Source of the DNA: Dehalococcoidia bacterium
Lineage (GTDB): Bacteria > Chloroflexota > Dehalococcoidia > UBA2979
Length of the DNA: 64,000 nt
NCBI GenBank assembly: GCA_965219085.1
Contig: OZ244720.1
Coordinates: forward strand, 2,848,001 to 2,912,000
Reading direction: 5' to 3'
A program made the translations under genes and the position numbers. Positions 1 to 5,308 of this stretch are shown piece by piece (within the stretch, counting starts at the first letter, position 1; every line of letters starts with the position of its first letter). The notes beneath the pieces are model-generated. The model was not told the origin of the DNA. It searched no databases and saw nothing but the letters and a program-made list of their open reading frames with translations.

Positions 1-590
1 TGGGGGACTCGGCGGTACCCGCCGTGCGGCTGCGTGCTGAGCGGCCGAACCACGTCTGGGCGCTGGACTTCCAGTTCGACCAGACCGCGGACGGGCGGGT
101 CCTGAAGCTGCTCAACATCGTCGACGAGCACACACGGGAGGCGCTGGCGGTGGTGGCCGCCAGGCGCATCAACGCCGACGCCACCGCCGCCACGCTCGAC
201 CGGATCGTCGCCTGGCGCGGAACGGCGCCGGGGTACATCCGCTGCGACAACGGGCCCGAGCTCACGGCCAACGCCTTGCGCGACTGGTGCCGGTTCAGCG
301 GCACCGGCAGCAGCTACATCGAGCCTGGCGCGCCGTGGGAGAACCCGTACGTGGAGTCGTTCAACGGCCGGCTGCGCGACGAGTTCCTGGCCGTCGAGCA
401 GTTCGACAGCCTGCTTGAGGCGCAGGTGCTGCTCGAGGACTGGCGGATCGAGTACAACACGAAGCGCCCGCATAGATGGCATGAGGGCCGGTCCCCTCCT
501 CACAGCGGATACTCGTCTCCGCCGGGAGCACGGCCTCGATGGGCTAGGTAGCGGCTCGGCAAGGAGCCTGAGAGAGGTAGGAGACCGGCC

Positions 591-1676
591 ATGCGGCAGG
601 ATATCGCAACGATGCGCATCGACGACAGGGATGGGGCCGCCGTCATCGTCGGCCTCGACGTGGGCGATCGTTACACGCACGTCCACGCGCTCGGCGCCGG
701 CGGAGAGGCGGTGCGCGAACGGCGCGTCCGCACCACGGCGGCGTCGCTGACTACAGCGCTGGCCAGCCTGCCTCCAGCGCGGGTCGTGCTCGAGGCGGGG
801 CCGCGCTCGCCGTGGCTAAGCCGCCTCGTGGCGGACCTCGGCCACGAGGCGGTCGTCGCCAACCCTCGCCAGGTGGCGCTGATCGCCCGCAGCCAGCGCA
901 AGACCGACCGGCTCGACGCCGCGTGGCTGGCGCGGCTGGGGCGCTTCGACCCGGAGCTGCTCGCCCCGATCCGCCACAGGAGCGAGCGAAGCCAGCACGA
1001 CCTCGCCGTGGTGCGCGCCCGCGACGCACTGGTGCGCACCAGGACGTTGCTCATCAACCACGTGCGTGGGGCCGTCAAGGCCTGCGGCGCCGCGCTGCCG
1101 TCGTGCACGGCCGAGGCCTTCCACCGCAAGATGGGGGACCACATCCCCGACGGGCTGCGCCCGGCGCTGCTGCCGCTGGTGGAAACGATCGGCGAGCTGA
1201 CCGCGCGCATCGCGGCAGCCGGCCGCGAGGTCGACGCGCTGTGCGAGGCTCACCCCGAGACCGCGGCGCTGCGCCAGGTCACCGGCGTGGGGCCGATCAC
1301 GGCGCTCACGTTCGTGCTGACGATCGAGGACCCCGGCCGCTTCCCGAAGAACCGGGAGGTGGGGGCCTACCTCGGGCTCGTGCCGCAGCAGCGGGAGTCT
1401 GGGGAGCGAGCGCCACAGCTCGGCATCAGCAAGAGCGGCGACGCGGGCCTGCGGCGGCTGCTCGTGCAGGCTGCGCACTACATCCTCGGCCCCTTCGGAC
1501 CCGATACCGACCTGCGCCGCTGGGGTGAGCGCTACGCCGCTACGGGGGCCGGCAACGCGAAGAAGCGCGCCGTCGTGGGCGTCGCGAGGCGGCTGGCGGT
1601 GCTGCTGCTCGCGCTGTGGAAGAGTGGCGAGGTCTACGAACCGCTACGTCACGCCGCAACCCGCGAGGCTGTGTAG
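591..1676 (+). CDS. IS110/IS1111-family DEDD transposase (bridge recombinase)
   Basis: RuvC-like motifs VGLDVG, LEAG and KTDRLDA; C-terminal GVGPITA and AYLGLVPQQRESG with the catalytic Ser; AG-rich RBS upstream. Confidence 0.95.
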   Translation: MRQDIATMRIDDRDGAAVIVGLDVGDRYTHVHALGAGGEAVRERRVRTTAASLTTALASLPPARVVLEAGPRSPWLSRLVADLGHEAVVANPRQVALIARSQRKTDRLDAAWLARLGRFDPELLAPIRHRSERSQHDLAVVRARDALVRTRTLLINHVRGAVKACGAALPSCTAEAFHRKMGDHIPDGLRPALLPLVETIGELTARIAAAGREVDALCEAHPETAALRQVTGVGPITALTFVLTIEDPGRFPKNREVGAYLGLVPQQRESGERAPQLGISKSGDAGLRRLLVQAAHYILGPFGPDTDLRRWGERYAATGAGNAKKRAVVGVARRLAVLLLALWKSGEVYEPLRHAATREAV

Positions 1677-2003
1677 GGGCGAGGCAGCGTAGCAGGCGGC
1701 GGGGAGCGGAGAGCAGGAAGGAAGAATCCGAGCGCGAACGAAGCCTTGCACGTGATGCCGAACACGGGCGACTGCGACAGGCTGCTTGTCCCACCGAGGA
1801 CGCCGCATAGCTGGCAGCGCCCCCTGGAAGCAGGATGTGCCTTCATGCACCGGACCCGACGCGCGGTCCATCGAGAGTGCGGATAGAAGCTCGGCACGGG
1901 CTCCGCCACCGGACATCACGAGTAGCTCGGCCCGGACCAGGAGAGGCGTCGTACCCGGAGGAGGCCGCCACGTCGGCCTTGCGGAAAGACCGTCCCTCAT
2001 AGA
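1677..2003 (+). ncRNA. Predicted bridge/seek RNA locus of the IS1111-type element
   Basis: CAGGCTGCT (1778-1786) is the reverse complement of the target right half AGCAGCCTG. CCGCATAG (1803-1810) equals the target left half plus core. They are separated by a GTCC/GGAC hairpin and closed by a GGGCG-CTGC/GCAG-CGCCC stem. RNA boundaries are inferred. Confidence 0.8.
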
Positions 2004-2738
2004 AGGCAGCGTAGCAGGCGGCGGGGAGCGGAGAGCAGGAAGGAAGAATCCGAGCGCGAACGAAGCCTTGCACGTGATGCCGAACACGGGCGACTGCGAC
2101 AGGCTGCTTGTCCCACCGAGGACGCCGCATAGCTGGCAGCGCCCCCTGGAAGCAGGATGTGCCTTCATGCACCGGACCCGACGCGCGGTCCATCGAGAGT
2201 GCGGATAGAAGCTCGGCACGGGCTCCGCCACCGGACATCACGAGTAGCTCGGCCCGGACCAGGAGAGGCGTCGTACCCGGAGGAGGCCGCCACGTCGGCC
2301 TTGCGGAAAGACCGTCCCTCATAGAAGAAGCTCGGCACGGGCTCCGCCACCGGACATCACGAGTAGCTCGGCCCGGACCAGGAGAGGCGTCGTACCCGGA
2401 GGAGGCCGCCACGTCGGCCTTGCGGAAAGACCGTCCCTCATAGAAGCAGGATGTGCCTTCATGCACCGGACCCGACGCGCGGTCCATCGAGAGTGCGGAT
2501 AGAAGCTCGGCACGGGCTCCGCCACCGGACATCACGAGTAGCTCGGCCCGGACCAGGAGAGGCGTCGTACCCGGAGGAGGCCGCCACGTCGGCCTTGCGG
2601 AAAGACCGTCCCTCATAGAAGAAGCTCGGCACGGGCTCCGCCACCGGACATCACGAGTAGCTCGGCCCGGACCAGGAGAGGCGTCGTACCCGGAGGAGGC
2701 CGCCACGTCGGCCTTGCGGAAAGACCGTCCCTCATAGA
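1682..2738 (+). repeat. Tandem array of five IS right ends: 1682-2003, 2004-2325 (322 bp), 2326-2444 (119 bp), 2445-2619 (175 bp), 2620-2738 (119 bp)
   Basis: Every unit ends GGAAAGACCGTCCCTCATAGA. The next unit starts at an internal AG of the non-coding region (equivalent to 1682, 1885, 1829, 1885). Confidence 0.95.
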
Positions 2739-2839
2739 AGCAGCCTGGGCTGGCTCGCCCCGGCTGCCTACGCCGAGCGCTGGGAGACTCAGCTACACGC
2801 TGGACTCTCATAAGCGGTGGACTCGCGAAGGGGGTCCGG

Positions 2840-3969
2840 TCACCCCGCGTAATCCGCGAGCCACTCAGCGGCGATGAATCCCAATGCATACGTCAGCCAG
2901 AAGTGGCTTCGGTCGAAGTCGTGCACTTCACCGGGAGTTCTGGTGAGTTGTTCGACGGCGAAGCTGGGATTGCGGGCTCTACGCCCGACCTCCAGATCGT
3001 ACACATATTGGGCGTAGTCGGCAGTGCCCTCGCTCATCCAATCGGGACCGAAGTACAACTCGTCCGTTTCCATGGCGAGGACGTTCTGGAGGACGTGAAA
3101 GTACTCGTGTGCTACTGCACTCGCGCTGCAGCCGGGGAACTGGAACTCGATGACATCGTGCGAAACCGTGCAGTAGAACGTGTTGCCGGCGTCGACGTCG
3201 ACCGTGTAGTCGGTGGTGTGTACGCCGAAGCGCATCGCGACCACGTCGGTGGCGCTCTCGAACAGCGCCCGGACCTCGTCGCGCTGCTCAGCCGTGATGT
3301 CGTCGGCGAAGACGAACGTTGGCCGCGCCGTCCCGCGTTCCCACCACCGTGCGTCTCTCGACAGTTCGAGCCGCAGCGCCTGCCCGCGGGCGAGCGTCGT
3401 GAGCCCGACGTCGTCCGCGTCCGCACCGTAGTGCACGTACCGTTGCGTCTCGGCCTCCCACCTCGACGCCTCCACGGGCTCGTCGCCAAAACGGGCGAGG
3501 GCATCCGCGACAGGCGTGCCGTCCGCGCCCGTCCAGCCCATGAGGTTCCACCCGGCGCGGAGGGAGATCACGACGCCCTCGCCGGAGACGAGGCGGGTCC
3601 ACTCGACGGTCGAGTCGCCGTCGAGAAGCAGCCACGGCCCCATCCCCCCGTGAGCGTCGGCAGGTCGCTGTACCGGCGTCGCAGGGCGTGCTGGTAGGCC
3701 TGCTCCTCGGCGTCCCACGCCGAGACCTGCCGCAGCGCCGGGATCGCGTCGAACAGCTCCGAGGTGGAGGTGCTCGGCCCGACCCAGCCGACCATGTTCC
3801 AGCCGGGATACAGCACGGCGGTGATCGTGTCCGCCTCGGATGTTCCCGCCGGGTCGGACGAGGCGACAGCGTGCGCGGGCGCCACTCCGACACCGAGCAC
3901 GAGGAGCGCGAGCGCCGCGAGGAGCGCGCGCCGGAGGTGTGCGGGCGGGAGCGGGCTCGATGCGGTCAT
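2840..3969 (-). pseudogene. Secreted zinc-metallopeptidase-like paralogue 4 (HEYFH motif), frameshifted near 3645 and truncated by the IS3 end
   Basis: Signal peptide and YPGWNMVGW domain in the 3568-3969 frame continue in the 2840-3718 frame with HEYFH...WMSEGTADY. The stop is supplied by the IS3 terminus right after WLADYAG. Confidence 0.75.
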
Positions 3970-5216
3970 GGCGCCTCCAGCGTCTCGCGGTACGCCTCGA
4001 ACTGCTCGTAGAACTCCTCGAACGTCAGGCCGAACGCGCCCTCGAACGCCTCGTCGCGACTCCGCGCCTCGGGCAGGCGGCGGTAGTAGTCGAAGATGGC
4101 CGGGTCACCGGCGTGGTCGGCGAGCCACTCGACAGCGAGGAAGCCGAGTCCATGCACGGCACGCCGCGTGACCCCGCCTGGGTTCGCGTCTCGCTCCAGC
4201 TCCCGGAGGGGAACGGCCGTGTGCGCCGCTCCCACGACCTGGCCGTCACGGTACCGCAGTGCATCCTCGGAGCCGAGCGCGTGGCGGGCCTGGGCGAGCA
4301 CGTAGATCTCGGATCCGGCGTCGAGCCACTCGGGGAGGCTCGGGTGCCACGGGTCGGTGTTCACAGGCACGAGGCCCCTGAAGTACAGCCGGGCGAGTTG
4401 GTCTAGCGAGAACTGCTCGACGCACCGGGAGCAGACGTAGATCTGCACGCCGCTGCCGAGGACGGCAAAGCGCTCGGCTAAGAAGCCGTCGAGCGCCCGG
4501 TACCTGTCGAGGAGGTCGTCGCGTAGCTGCTGCGGCAGGTCACCGTAGAACGAGATCGGCGGGGTCGAGACACCCACCTGCCACCAGCCGCGCGCCCTCG
4601 GCGTCTCGACCCAGATCGCATCGCCGCGATGCAGCCTGGACAGGGTGTCCGCACCGTCCAGCGTACCCGGTGCGTAATGCTCGAATCGCTGCGACCGGGC
4701 GTTCCACTGCGACGAGCGGTCGACGTCACTGCCCAGCCGCCCGAGGGCGCTATCCAGACGTGTCGTGTCCTCGCCCGCCGATGCCACGAGGTTCTGTCCT
4801 GCGTACGGCGGGAGCACCAGGGCTTCGTCCGACACCGCGCGCGTCCACTGGACGGTCGCGTCGCCGCGCAGGCGCAGCCAGAGGCCCATGCCGCGTTCAA
4901 CCGTCGGCAGTTCGCCGTCCCCGTATCGCCCGGCGTGCCGGTAGCGTCCGTGGTTCGCGTCCCACGCCGAGACCTGCTGGAGGGTTCGGATCGCGTCGAA
5001 CAGCTCCGAGACCGGGCTGTCCGGCGCGACCCAACCCACCATGTTCCAGCCGGGGTACAGCGTCGACGTGATCGTTTCTTCTGCCGGCTCGCCCGAGGTC
5101 GGCGCGGCGTTGGCGCGGTCGGGAGACAGCCCCATGCCCACCACGGCGAGCACTACGAAGCCGGCGAGGAGCGCGTGGCGCAGACGGGGAGCCATCGGTA
5201 CGCGGCGTCGCGTCAC
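3966..5216 (-). CDS. Secreted paralogue 3 (YPGWNMVGW domain, degenerate peptidase-like C-terminus)
   Basis: Open frame with signal peptide. GTG start overlaps the upstream paralogue's stop (GTGA); alternative ATG at 5195. Conserved C-terminus LGFLAVEWLADHAGDPA...FEAYRETLEAP. Confidence 0.8.
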   Translation of the reverse strand: MTRRRVPMAPRLRHALLAGFVVLAVVGMGLSPDRANAAPTSGEPAEETITSTLYPGWNMVGWVAPDSPVSELFDAIRTLQQVSAWDANHGRYRHAGRYGDGELPTVERGMGLWLRLRGDATVQWTRAVSDEALVLPPYAGQNLVASAGEDTTRLDSALGRLGSDVDRSSQWNARSQRFEHYAPGTLDGADTLSRLHRGDAIWVETPRARGWWQVGVSTPPISFYGDLPQQLRDDLLDRYRALDGFLAERFAVLGSGVQIYVCSRCVEQFSLDQLARLYFRGLVPVNTDPWHPSLPEWLDAGSEIYVLAQARHALGSEDALRYRDGQVVGAAHTAVPLRELERDANPGGVTRRAVHGLGFLAVEWLADHAGDPAIFDYYRRLPEARSRDEAFEGAFGLTFEEFYEQFEAYRETLEAP

Positions 5217-5308
5217 GGCAGCATCAGTCCCGCGCGGTGTTCCTCGAACTCCTCTTAAAACGCGTCGACGGCGATGCCGAAGGTGGCCTCGAATCGCTCT
5301 CGCCATAT

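What the first reader, a model, noticed from the sequence alone, without database searches (positions are those of the whole stretch)
1677..2740. IS1111-type bridge-recombinase element with five tandem right ends, each fused at the AG recombination core to an internal site of its own RNA locus
Seen: after the transposase the right end (...GACCGTCCCTCAT-AGA) occurs five times. Each is followed by AG and a restart inside the non-coding region at the equivalent of 1682, 1885, 1829 or 1885; the last is followed by the true target. Two restart sites resemble the true target ccgcat-AG-cagcctg: gcggat-AG-aagctcg (1885, used twice) and cctgga-AG-caggatg (1829). The third, ggggcg-AG-gcagcgt, is weak and one base out of register. 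Units differ in length (322, 119, 175, 119 bp), share the exact element terminus and appear identical in overlapping parts, so ordinary slippage does not explain them. Inference: the recombinase repeatedly acted on near-cognate targets inside its own guide-RNA gene (self-insertion then collapse of duplicated transposase copies, or one-ended recombination). The result has a second full guide copy (2004-2325) and three truncated copies lacking the target loop. This could be a natural record of off-target self-recombination and a route to bridge-RNA arrays, dosage change or decoy RNAs.
Basis: partly seen in the sequence, partly recalled or inferred. Interest (0 to 1): 0.88.

Follow-up and report, generated by a model that had tools for sequence, protein, structure and literature searches.

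The report
Mobile element with five right ends
A small RNA-guided jumping gene has copied its own tail, which carries its guide-RNA gene, several times by rejoining at its usual AG crossover point; a 2026 preprint describes such tail repeats in bulk, so this is a clean new example, not a new kind of thing.

Summary
Window 476-2738 is an IS1111-type (IS110 family) element inserted at ccgcat-AG-cagcct in an rve transposase gene. After the transposase gene its right end occurs five times. The units (322, 322, 119, 175, 119 bp) are 100% identical suffixes of the element, and each is joined RE-AG-internal sequence.

Three tandem duplications (322, 119, 294 bp) are enough to build it. Two other copies in this genome and one in a related genome carry shorter right-end arrays.

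All 7 distinct junctions have AG in register. Five of 7 share only that AG. A 7-nt perfect match nearby was never used in register. This points to the element's own recombinase acting at the core dinucleotide, not to slippage.

The "near-cognate target" idea fits only 2 of 7 sites, and those two motifs are conserved whatever the target. The route (one-sided or unequal exchange, or circle insertion then collapse) is unresolved.

A bioRxiv preprint of August 2026 already reports tandem non-coding units beside IS110 transposases (n=468) that keep only the left-donor match. What is added here is the strict core rule and the duplication of a whole bridge-RNA gene. Reads from the source sample were not available.

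The parts
3..473 (+). 5' part of the host gene, an rve-type integrase/transposase of another IS, interrupted by the element
   Evidence: PF00665 (E 2.4e-18) and PF13683 (E 1.2e-21). The reading frame resumes at 2739.
474..475 (+). Left copy of the AG core dinucleotide (junction LT-AG-LE)
   Evidence: Sequence. The empty site CCGCAT-AG-CAGCCT occurs 10 times in the genome.
476..493 (+). Left end. Counting the AG, there is a 7-bp extension (AGATGGC), then the sub-terminal inverted repeat ATGAGGGCCGGTC (481-493).
   Evidence: It matches the reverse complement of 1988-2000 at 12 of 13 positions. The same left end is present in 10 copies in the genome.
591..1676 (+). Transposase/recombinase gene, 361 aa, intact
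   Evidence: PF01548 DEDD_Tnp_IS110 (E 1.3e-18) and PF02371 Transposase_20 (E 1.8e-20). ORF.
1682..2003 (+). Original right-end segment (unit 1, 322 bp). It starts at the AG used for the 322-bp duplication and ends at the element terminus.
1746..1925 (+). Bridge RNA (seekRNA) gene, copy 1. Closing stem 1746-1759 with 1911-1924. Target-binding loop 1766-1822, with RTG 1779-1786 (AGGCTGCT) and LTG 1803-1810 (CCGCATAG). Hairpin CCUG-GAAG-CAGG 1823-1834. Donor-binding loop about 1835-1897, with RDG about 1838-1845 and LDG 1881-1889 (GGATAGAAG).
   Evidence: The guides match this copy's flanks 8/8 and 8/8 and change with the flanks in relatives. Consensus fold. MFE -76.4 kcal/mol, z -2.0. No Rfam family matched.
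1988..2003 (+). Right sub-terminal inverted repeat GACCGTCCCTCAT plus the 3-bp extension AGA (first right end)
   Evidence: features of the IS1111 family
2004..2325 (+). Unit 2 (322 bp): a complete second bridge-RNA gene (2068-2247) plus the right end. Junction RE-AG-gcagcg.
   Evidence: 100% identical to 1682-2003
2326..2444 (+). Unit 3 (119 bp): starts at the AG inside the LDG-coding DNA (equivalent to 1885). It holds no complete guide loop, then the right end.
2445..2619 (+). Unit 4 (175 bp): starts in the GAAG hairpin loop (equivalent to 1829). It holds the donor-binding loop (2451-2513) but not the target-binding loop, then the right end.
   Evidence: Together with unit 5 it repeats 2151-2444 (period 294).
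2620..2738 (+). Unit 5 (119 bp), identical to unit 3. Its right end is the one next to the true target flank.
2739..2813 (+). Right AG core (2739-2740) and the rest of the interrupted rve gene (S-S-L-G-W-L-A-P... to TAA at 2811-2813)
   Evidence: Contigs of X1, X8 and X18 cover this flank.

Best explanation
An IS1111-type bridge-recombinase element sits in its cognate target, a conserved site in another IS's rve gene. In this group the right end carries the bridge-RNA gene. Here that right end was expanded by at least three tandem duplications (322, 119 and 294 bp in the simplest order). In each, the element's own recombinase joined the authentic right-end/core junction (left donor, ...CATAGA-AG) to an AG dinucleotide a short way upstream inside the element.

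The partner site needs little more than the AG core and proximity. It is a one-sided (left-donor half-site) reaction. It was most likely resolved in place as an unequal exchange between sister copies, or as a top-strand transfer fixed by replication.

Shown: the anatomy, the AG rule, the lack of any use of longer homology, recurrence in four elements, and intact transposase genes. Inferred: that the recombinase did it, and by which route.

Consequence (inferred): the element now carries two complete bridge-RNA genes, a third donor-loop-only copy, and five nested right ends.
For: (1) 7 of 7 distinct junctions in four elements are RE(...CATAGA)-AG-internal sequence, with AG also present at the internal site. 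Every unit is an exact suffix of its element.
(2) The shared sequence at the junction is AG alone in 5 of 7, 4 nt in 1 and 7 nt in 1. A perfect 7-nt end-anchored match (ATAGAAG, the LDG-coding DNA) lies within 120 nt in all four elements and was used in register in 0 of 7. The 119-bp unit here starts at an AG 3 nt upstream of it.
(3) All 7 partner sites lie within 322 nt of the right end, although only 26-33% of the element's AG sites do. P is about 2e-4 if sites were drawn evenly.
(4) Recurrence: 3 of 10 RE-bearing copies in this genome and 1 of 28 exact-RE stretches in other species' genomes (the same locus as L045).
(5) All four array-bearing copies keep full-length transposase ORFs of 361-364 aa.
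(6) In IS621 the protein itself reads the core dinucleotide, and 87.2% of 117 off-target insertions kept the core while only 47.9% resembled target or donor (passages read).
(7) Top-strand LD-RT to new-RT transfer has been shown in vitro for another IS110 element (bioRxiv 10.1101/2025.10.25.684509, part 2 of 3 of the Results (section 4) and the Discussion (section 9) read).
(8) Hu et al. (bioRxiv 10.64898/2026.08.14.744561, sections 8 and 10 read) report tandem non-coding units beside IS110 transposases (n=468). Their boundaries keep almost only LD matches, and for the partial-circle junctions they studied the unmatched side shows no residual similarity to the donor.
Against: No reads from the source sample were available, so the array rests on the assembly alone. 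The four runs laid hold relatives and show no array junction.

No recombination intermediate, reciprocal deletion product or partial circle was seen. Among the 11 copies in this genome none is X-AG-flank.

A break at RE-AG repaired with a minimal 2-nt overlap would give the same AG rule.

Two of the 7 sites are unusually like the target and the RE-flank junction, so some guide or homology contribution cannot be excluded.

The sample is small (7 junctions, 4 elements, 2 genomes of one genus), and the copies are related.
Confidence: 0.7

Rival explanations
1. First reader's route. The excised circle, guided by its bridge RNA, inserted into near-cognate targets inside the resident copy's own guide gene. 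Homologous recombination between the two long direct repeats (LE-tnp-X) then deleted one transposase copy, leaving Y-RE-AG-Y-RE.
For: The logic gives exactly the observed junction. The sites at 1829 and 1885 score 8 of 14 against the target, with only 3 of 94 AG sites better. IS621 off-targets tolerate mismatches and 1-nt insertions, as at the 1682 site and at one G012 site, which match one base out of register. [quoted passage not shown]
Against: Five of 7 sites are mid-rank for likeness to the target. By my arithmetic, 2 or more of 7 falling in the top 6 of 94 has P of about 0.07. The best internal pseudo-target (the LTG-coding DNA at 1803-1810 with its flank, 10 of 14) was not used. The two high-scoring motifs are invariant in relatives with other targets. 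All 7 sites lie within 322 nt of the right end, which a free circle would not favour. However, longer duplications may simply be less stable. No nested copy was found: the left flanks of the 10 other copies printed, and this copy's own, are target-type. No RE-AG-LE junction was found in this genome or in 5 related genomes. Each event needs two steps.
Confidence: 0.15
2. No strand exchange by the recombinase. A nick or break made at RE-AG (or a stalled fork there) was repaired by microhomology-mediated template switching or replication slippage onto an upstream AG, which re-copied the segment.
For: This also explains a fixed right boundary at the cleavage site and a junction overlap that always includes AG. 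The 175/294-bp junction has a 7-nt overlap, GAAGCAG. Proximity to the right end is expected.
Against: Annealing should favour longer overlaps. Yet 5 of 7 junctions have only 2 nt. The base left of AG matches in 1 of 7, which is about the chance rate. The 7-nt perfect match available in every element was used in register in 0 of 7. Serine-type cleavage leaves the enzyme covalently on the 5' end, which favours religation over free ends.
Confidence: 0.08
3. Assembly or polishing artefact: the real locus has one right end.
For: No read support could be obtained. The runs found share at most 0.45 of the sampled words, and none of the four laid shows an array junction. A relative in run X8 has one right end on the same kind of flank (table 5).
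Against: The genome is a single 3.3-Mb contig. Arrays of different unit lengths occur at three loci in it and at one locus in another genome, always joined at AG at the exact element terminus. Assemblers do not know that position. The preprint reports the same pattern widely.
Confidence: 0.04

Closest known systems
Tandem non-coding repeat units beside IS110 transposases (Hu, Xie, Yang, Rubin, bioRxiv 10.64898/2026.08.14.744561, Aug 2026; outline, sections 8 and 10 and passages read)
   Same: Head-to-tail units next to the transposase gene. Unit boundaries keep the left-donor (element right-end) match only. The other side shows no guide match. The authors read it as a one-sided reaction started at LD and resolved in place.
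   Different: The word IS1111 does not occur in that text. The word 'core' occurs 3 times and never about unit junctions. Figures and supplements were not visible to me. Here the bridge-RNA gene lies in the right end, so the array duplicates the guide gene itself. The strict AG rule, the non-use of the 7-nt match and the three-step history are worked out at base level.
ISPpu9 modular transposition (Pares-Guillen et al., NAR 2025, PMC12288879; Introduction and one Results section read)
   Same: An IS110-family element with repeated end boxes, recombination at an AG dinucleotide, several alternative circles, and an sRNA module downstream of tnp.
   Different: In ISPpu9 the extra module has both a left-type (A') and a right-type (B') box and moves on its own. 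The units here have no left end and are exact suffixes of the element.
IS621 / ISEc11 bridge RNA (seekRNA) systems (Durrant 2024 PMC11208160; Hiraizumi 2024 PMC11208158; Siddiquee 2024 PMC11187229; passages read)
   Same: A DEDD plus Tnp-domain recombinase. An RNA with a target loop and a donor loop. The LTG is identical to the top strand and the RTG is complementary to it. There is a core dinucleotide. Off-targets mostly keep the core.
   Different: The core is AG, not CT. The RNA is downstream of tnp (IS1111 layout). Nothing here was tested biochemically.
Direct top-strand transfer LD-RT to a new RT (Sun et al., bioRxiv 10.1101/2025.10.25.684509; part 2 of 3 of the Results and the Discussion read)
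   Same: It produces an LD-core-newRT junction without a circle, which is the junction type seen in the arrays.
   Different: It was shown for a cognate new target with full bridge RNA in an IS110-group element. Here the new partner is a non-cognate internal AG.
One-ended transposition and adjacent duplication by IS91 (named in the Hu et al. discussion; otherwise recalled)
   Same: Functionally unequal ends lead to one-sided events and tandem structures.
   Different: IS91 is an unrelated HUH rolling-circle enzyme with no guide RNA.

Membership tests
IS1111 group of the IS110 family | DEDD (RuvC-like) N-terminal domain plus the Transposase_20 C-terminal domain | tested here: met
   PF01548 E 1.3e-18 and PF02371 E 1.8e-20, both above their cut-offs
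IS1111 group of the IS110 family | Sub-terminal inverted repeats of 11-13 bp, with extensions of 7 bp (left) and 3 bp (right) (Siddiquee 2024) | tested here: met
   ATGAGGGCCGGTC (481-493) matches the reverse complement of GACCGTCCCTCAT (1988-2000) at 12 of 13. The extensions are AGATGGC (7, counting the AG) and AGA (3).
IS1111 group of the IS110 family | Long non-coding region downstream of tnp | tested here: met
   327 bp between the stop codon (1676) and the first right end (2003), against 115 bp upstream of tnp
IS1111 group of the IS110 family | Site-specific insertion without target duplication beyond the shared core | tested here: met
   The empty site CCGCAT-AG-CAGCCT is present 10 times. 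The occupied site has AG on both sides.
Bridge RNA / seekRNA | Target loop whose two guide segments match the left flank (same sense) and right flank (complement), and change with the target among relatives | tested here: met
   This copy matches 8/8 and 8/8. Among 12 element/flank sets, the RTG matched 8/8 in 4, 7/8 in 3, 6/8 in 2 and 5 or fewer in 3. The LTG matched 8/8 in 1, 7/8 in 5, 6/8 in 2 and 5 or fewer in 4 (no shuffled control was run).
Bridge RNA / seekRNA | Donor loop matching the element's own ends | tested here: inconclusive
   GGATAGAAG (1881-1889) matches RE end plus core TCATAGAAG at 7 of 9. TGCCTTCA (1838-1845) matches the complement of AGATGGCA at 6 of 8. Both are invariant in the relatives, so there is no covariation to test.
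Bridge RNA / seekRNA | The RNA is made and is needed for recombination | not testable with these tools
   The one RNA run laid covers only the flank 2744-2842. There is no Rfam model.
IS110 tandem non-coding expansion (Hu et al. 2026) | At least 2 same-strand adjacent units of 50 bp or more at 95% identity or more within the IS110 locus (their method) | tested here: met
   Units of 119-322 bp at 100% identity
IS110 tandem non-coding expansion (Hu et al. 2026) | Unit boundaries keep the LD match only | tested here: met
   Every unit ends in the full right end (LD). The partner sides are mid-rank for donor likeness, except that the 1885 site overlaps the LDG-coding DNA.

The most novel reading that the evidence does not exclude
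In IS1111-type elements, where the guide gene lies in the right end, one-sided recombination at the core makes natural bridge-RNA arrays. A spare complete guide gene would be free to drift to a new target, giving retargeting or dual-target elements. Donor-loop-only and loop-less transcripts could act as split-guide parts or decoys that tune excision against insertion. Five nested right ends would let the element leave with or without the extra guides. The same copy sits beside 10 empty perfect targets yet shows three or more local events. This would mean the one-sided reaction can outrun true transposition.
Probability: 0.12. Interest if true: 0.75.

Novelty: new member of a known kind. Interest (0 to 1): 0.45.

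Why it matters
Bridge recombinases are being developed as programmable genome editors. What they do when only one half-site matches matters for their safety and for how these elements grow. This locus is a base-resolved natural record of seven one-sided events. All seven keep the core dinucleotide, all are local, and they show little or no dependence on guide match or on longer homology. It also shows that in the IS1111 layout such events duplicate the guide-RNA gene. That gives a simple natural substrate for testing half-site recombination and the effect of extra or truncated guide copies.

Tried and rejected
Rfam. No family matched 400-2900 at E up to 1, so the RNA was defined from guide/flank matches and alignment instead.

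Promoters and terminators. The scan of 400-2900 found 0 promoter-like sites and 2 minus-strand terminator-like sites, against a shuffle mean of 0.7. Nothing was built on this.

Reads. The look-up of sequencing runs listed 22 runs, with a best share of 0.45. Logan contigs of X1, X4, X8 and X18 were laid on 1400-2900. No contig crosses any array junction. Bins 2012-2113 and 2165-2368 have no cover. The runs hold related copies in other flanks, so the array could be neither confirmed nor refuted. The RNA run X18 covers only 2744-2842, so there is no evidence on expression.

Wider surveys. The exact 18-nt right-end motif gave 28 stretches in genome contigs with 1 array, which is the one already found in G012. 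It gave 7 stretches in metagenome contigs with 0 arrays. Short-read contigs would collapse arrays in any case. The search of relatives matched in 8 of 61 genomes.

Intermediates. There is no RE-AG-LE junction in this genome or in G004, G012, G013, G015 and G017 at up to 1 mismatch. No reciprocal X-AG-flank deletion was found among the 11 copies. The truncated copy at C1:1333208 ends at a GC overlap about 100 nt into the flank, not at the core.

Target-likeness as the rule for partner sites was rejected for 5 of 7 sites. Likeness to donor or to LT-AG-RD was also unremarkable.

Literature. Searches led to the papers used. One search (IS1111 + tandem repeat) listed only Coxiella typing papers among the 15 shown of 70. 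In these searches I found no paper describing duplication of the guide gene in IS1111-type arrays.

Structure prediction, protein homology searches and complex prediction were not used, because the family assignment was already clear.

Full report
WHAT IS THERE

Window 3-473 encodes the N-terminal two thirds of an rve-type integrase (PF00665, PF13683). Its frame is broken after ...CGCCCGCAT-AG at 475 and resumes at 2739 (AG-CAGCCTGGGC..., stop at 2811-2813).

The intervening 2,263 bp (476-2738) is an IS110-family element.
- It has a 361-aa ORF at 591-1676 with PF01548 and PF02371.
- It has 13-bp sub-terminal inverted repeats matching at 12 of 13, with 7-bp and 3-bp extensions. Those are the lengths given for the IS1111 family (Siddiquee 2024, passages).
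- Its long non-coding region lies downstream of the transposase gene.
- The uninterrupted 14-mer CCGCATAGCAGCCT occurs 10 more times in the genome, each in the same rve context. Contigs of run X1 also read the empty site. The boundaries and the AG core are therefore secure.

THE GUIDE RNA

Eleven copies in the genome (85-100% identical) and relatives from other genomes were aligned. The alignment shows two short variable segments around a conserved hairpin.
- In this copy AGGCTGCT (1779-1786) is the reverse complement of AG+CAGCCT.
- CCGCATAG (1803-1810) equals the left flank plus core.
- Other subfamilies carry CACCCACT/CGGCAGAG, GAGCTGCT/CCACCAG and GGTAGC/TTCAAGAG, and sit in gggcag-AG-tgggtg, cccacc-AG-cagctc and ctcaag-AG-ctacc.

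Over 12 element/flank sets the right guide matched 8/8 in 4, 7/8 in 3, 6/8 in 2 and 5 or fewer in 3. The left guide matched 8/8 in 1, 7/8 in 5, 6/8 in 2 and 5 or fewer in 4 (no shuffle control was run). The sense/antisense pattern is the one described for IS621, where the LTG pairs with the bottom strand and the RTG with the top.

A second, invariant pair matches the element's own ends. TGCCTTCA is at 1838-1845. GGATAGAAG is at 1881-1889 and matches the RE end plus core at 7 of 9. A closing stem (1746-1759 with 1911-1924) has one pair with compensatory changes in 4 sequences. The single-sequence fold has z = -2.0. Rfam has no model for it.

THE ARRAY

The right end ends at 2003, 2325, 2444, 2619 and 2738. 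The units of 322, 322, 119, 175 and 119 bp are exact suffixes of the element.

Write the original tail as a (147 bp), c' (56 bp) and B (119 bp). The locus then reads a c' B | a c' B | B | c' B | B. There are three junction types, so at least three events. Three suffice:
1. duplication of a c' B (322 bp);
2. then of the last B (119 bp);
3. then of c' B B (294 bp).

TRF's exact 294 x 2.0 repeat fits the third step. In that order every event used the outermost right end, the one next to the cognate flank.

Unit 2 holds a complete second guide gene. Unit 4 holds the donor loop only. Units 3 and 5 hold no complete loop.

IT RECURS

In the same genome the copy at C1:1259819 has a 59-bp extra right-end unit, and the copy at C1:891783 has a 76-bp one. 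That is 3 of 10 RE-bearing copies.

A related genome (G012; L045 is the same locus as L070) has units of 59 and 64 bp. It was the only array among 28 exact-motif stretches in other species' genomes. There were none in 7 metagenome contigs.

All four array-bearing copies keep full-length transposase ORFs.

WHAT THE JUNCTIONS SAY

All 7 distinct junctions read RE-AG-Y, with x-AG-Y at the internal site. AG occupies 0.062 of positions.

The overlap is AG alone in 5 junctions, AGCG in one and GAAGCAG in one. The base left of AG matches in 1 of 7, which is the chance rate.

Every element contains a perfect 7-nt copy of its own terminus plus core (ATAGAAG, the DNA coding the left donor guide) within 120 nt of the end. 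It was used in register in 0 of 7 events. The 119-bp unit here starts at the AG 3 nt upstream of that register. A process driven by annealing should have preferred it.

All 7 partner sites lie within 322 nt of the right end, where 26-33% of the AG sites lie (P about 2e-4).

Likeness to the target was scored over 7+7 nt.
- The sites at 1829 and 1885 score 8 of 14 (3 better, 3 tied, of 94 AG sites).
- The 1682 site scores 2 of 14 (67 better).
- The four sites in other elements score 4 of 14 (30-42 better of 91-92).
- The best internal pseudo-target (10 of 14, at the LTG-coding DNA) is unused.

The two high-scoring sites match the RE-AG-flank junction even better. The 1829 site has Levenshtein distance 4 with none better. 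The 1885 site shares an 8-mer with none better. Both motifs are invariant in relatives with other targets. Likeness to the target is therefore not the rule. The rule is core dinucleotide plus proximity.

MECHANISM

The fixed right boundary at the cleavage site and the strict core point to the element's recombinase. So do the indifference to longer homology, the recurrence and the intact enzyme genes.

Published work fits this.
- IS621 reads the core through protein contacts and cleaves top strands through 5'-phosphoserine links.
- 87.2% of its 117 off-target insertions kept the core, while 47.9% resembled target or donor.
- An IS110 element transfers the LD-RT top strand directly to a new RT in vitro.
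- Hu et al. (2026 preprint) find tandem units that keep almost only LD matches. They suggest that LD-initiated reactions are resolved in place.

I favour a one-sided exchange between the RE-AG-flank junction and an upstream AG on a sister copy (confidence 0.7 for recombinase-mediated, core-only recombination). No nested or RE-AG-LE form was found, and a free circle would not favour nearby sites. I give it 0.15. Break repair with a minimal 2-nt overlap gets 0.08 and an artefact 0.04. None of these routes was tested directly.

LIMITS

No reads from the source sample were available. A relative in run X8 has the single-RE form on the same kind of flank, at depth 3.8 (table 5). That shows the simple form exists but says nothing about this strain.

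The junction sample is small and comes from one genus. Record titles of relatives read Dehalococcoidia/Tepidiformaceae MAGs. Whether the extra units are transcribed is unknown.

NOVELTY

The phenomenon is in print as a preprint (n=468 loci). That text does not mention IS1111, and the word 'core' never refers to unit junctions. I could not see its figures or supplements.

This locus adds a base-level case in the IS1111 layout, where the array duplicates the guide gene. It also adds the core-only rule for the partner site and the non-use of the built-in 7-nt homology. I rate it a new member of a known kind, with interest 0.45.

Noticed in passing
G000:C1:340394-341911 (L002): This copy carries the guides CACCCACT/CGGCAGAG (for gggcag-AG-tgggtg) but sits in a ctcaag-AG-ctacc target, the site of another subfamily. 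It is 99-100% identical to the C1:1259819 copy from about 300 nt inside the element to the right end. Its first ~300 nt are only 61-87% identical, and the left end has one extra A. Either it was guided in trans by another subfamily's RNA, or it is a gene-conversion chimera.
   Followed up: partly
G000:C1:1859038-1859950 and the twin at C1:1972909-1973820 (L011): The right ends of two copies are split, between GCAGAAAG and ACCGTCCCTCATAGA, by a ~0.9-kb ORF-less group II intron on the minus strand (RF02003 at 95.1 bits, RF00029 at 44.8 bits). The two loci are 1003 of 1031 identical.
   Followed up: partly
genome-wide, e.g. C1:503766, 1151188, 1561139: There are ten empty, perfect 14/14 targets for this element in the same genome, and only one is occupied. 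The host rve-IS is itself present in 11 copies.
   Followed up: partly
L075 compared with L065: The same flank (CCGTCGTGC) follows the right end directly in one genome. In another it follows after an extra AAG (CATAGAAG-AAG-CCGTCG). This is a 3-nt shift, as if the other AG of AGAAG had been used as the core.
   Followed up: no
G000:C1:1333208-1334571 (L005): A truncated copy. The element stops at ...GGAAGCAGGATGTGC and continues about 100 nt into the right flank at a 2-nt GC overlap. This deletion did not occur at the AG core.
   Followed up: no
L049, L056, L069 (genome contigs): The exact 18-nt right-end motif also occurs in MAGs labelled Pseudomonadota, Candidatus Poribacteria and Planctomycetota. 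This is either transfer between phyla sharing a habitat or binning error.
   Followed up: no
L053-L057, L061, L076: Several copies abut, tail to tail across about 10 nt, a second IS1111-like end (…CACTTCCTTCATGGA-AG). One element family therefore seems to target the end region of another.
   Followed up: no
window 2840-3718 (-) and 3966-5306 (-): Two neighbouring minus-strand ORFs (292 and 446 aa) share motifs such as YPGWNMVGW and LAxEWLADxAG. They are likely paralogues of unknown function.
   Followed up: no
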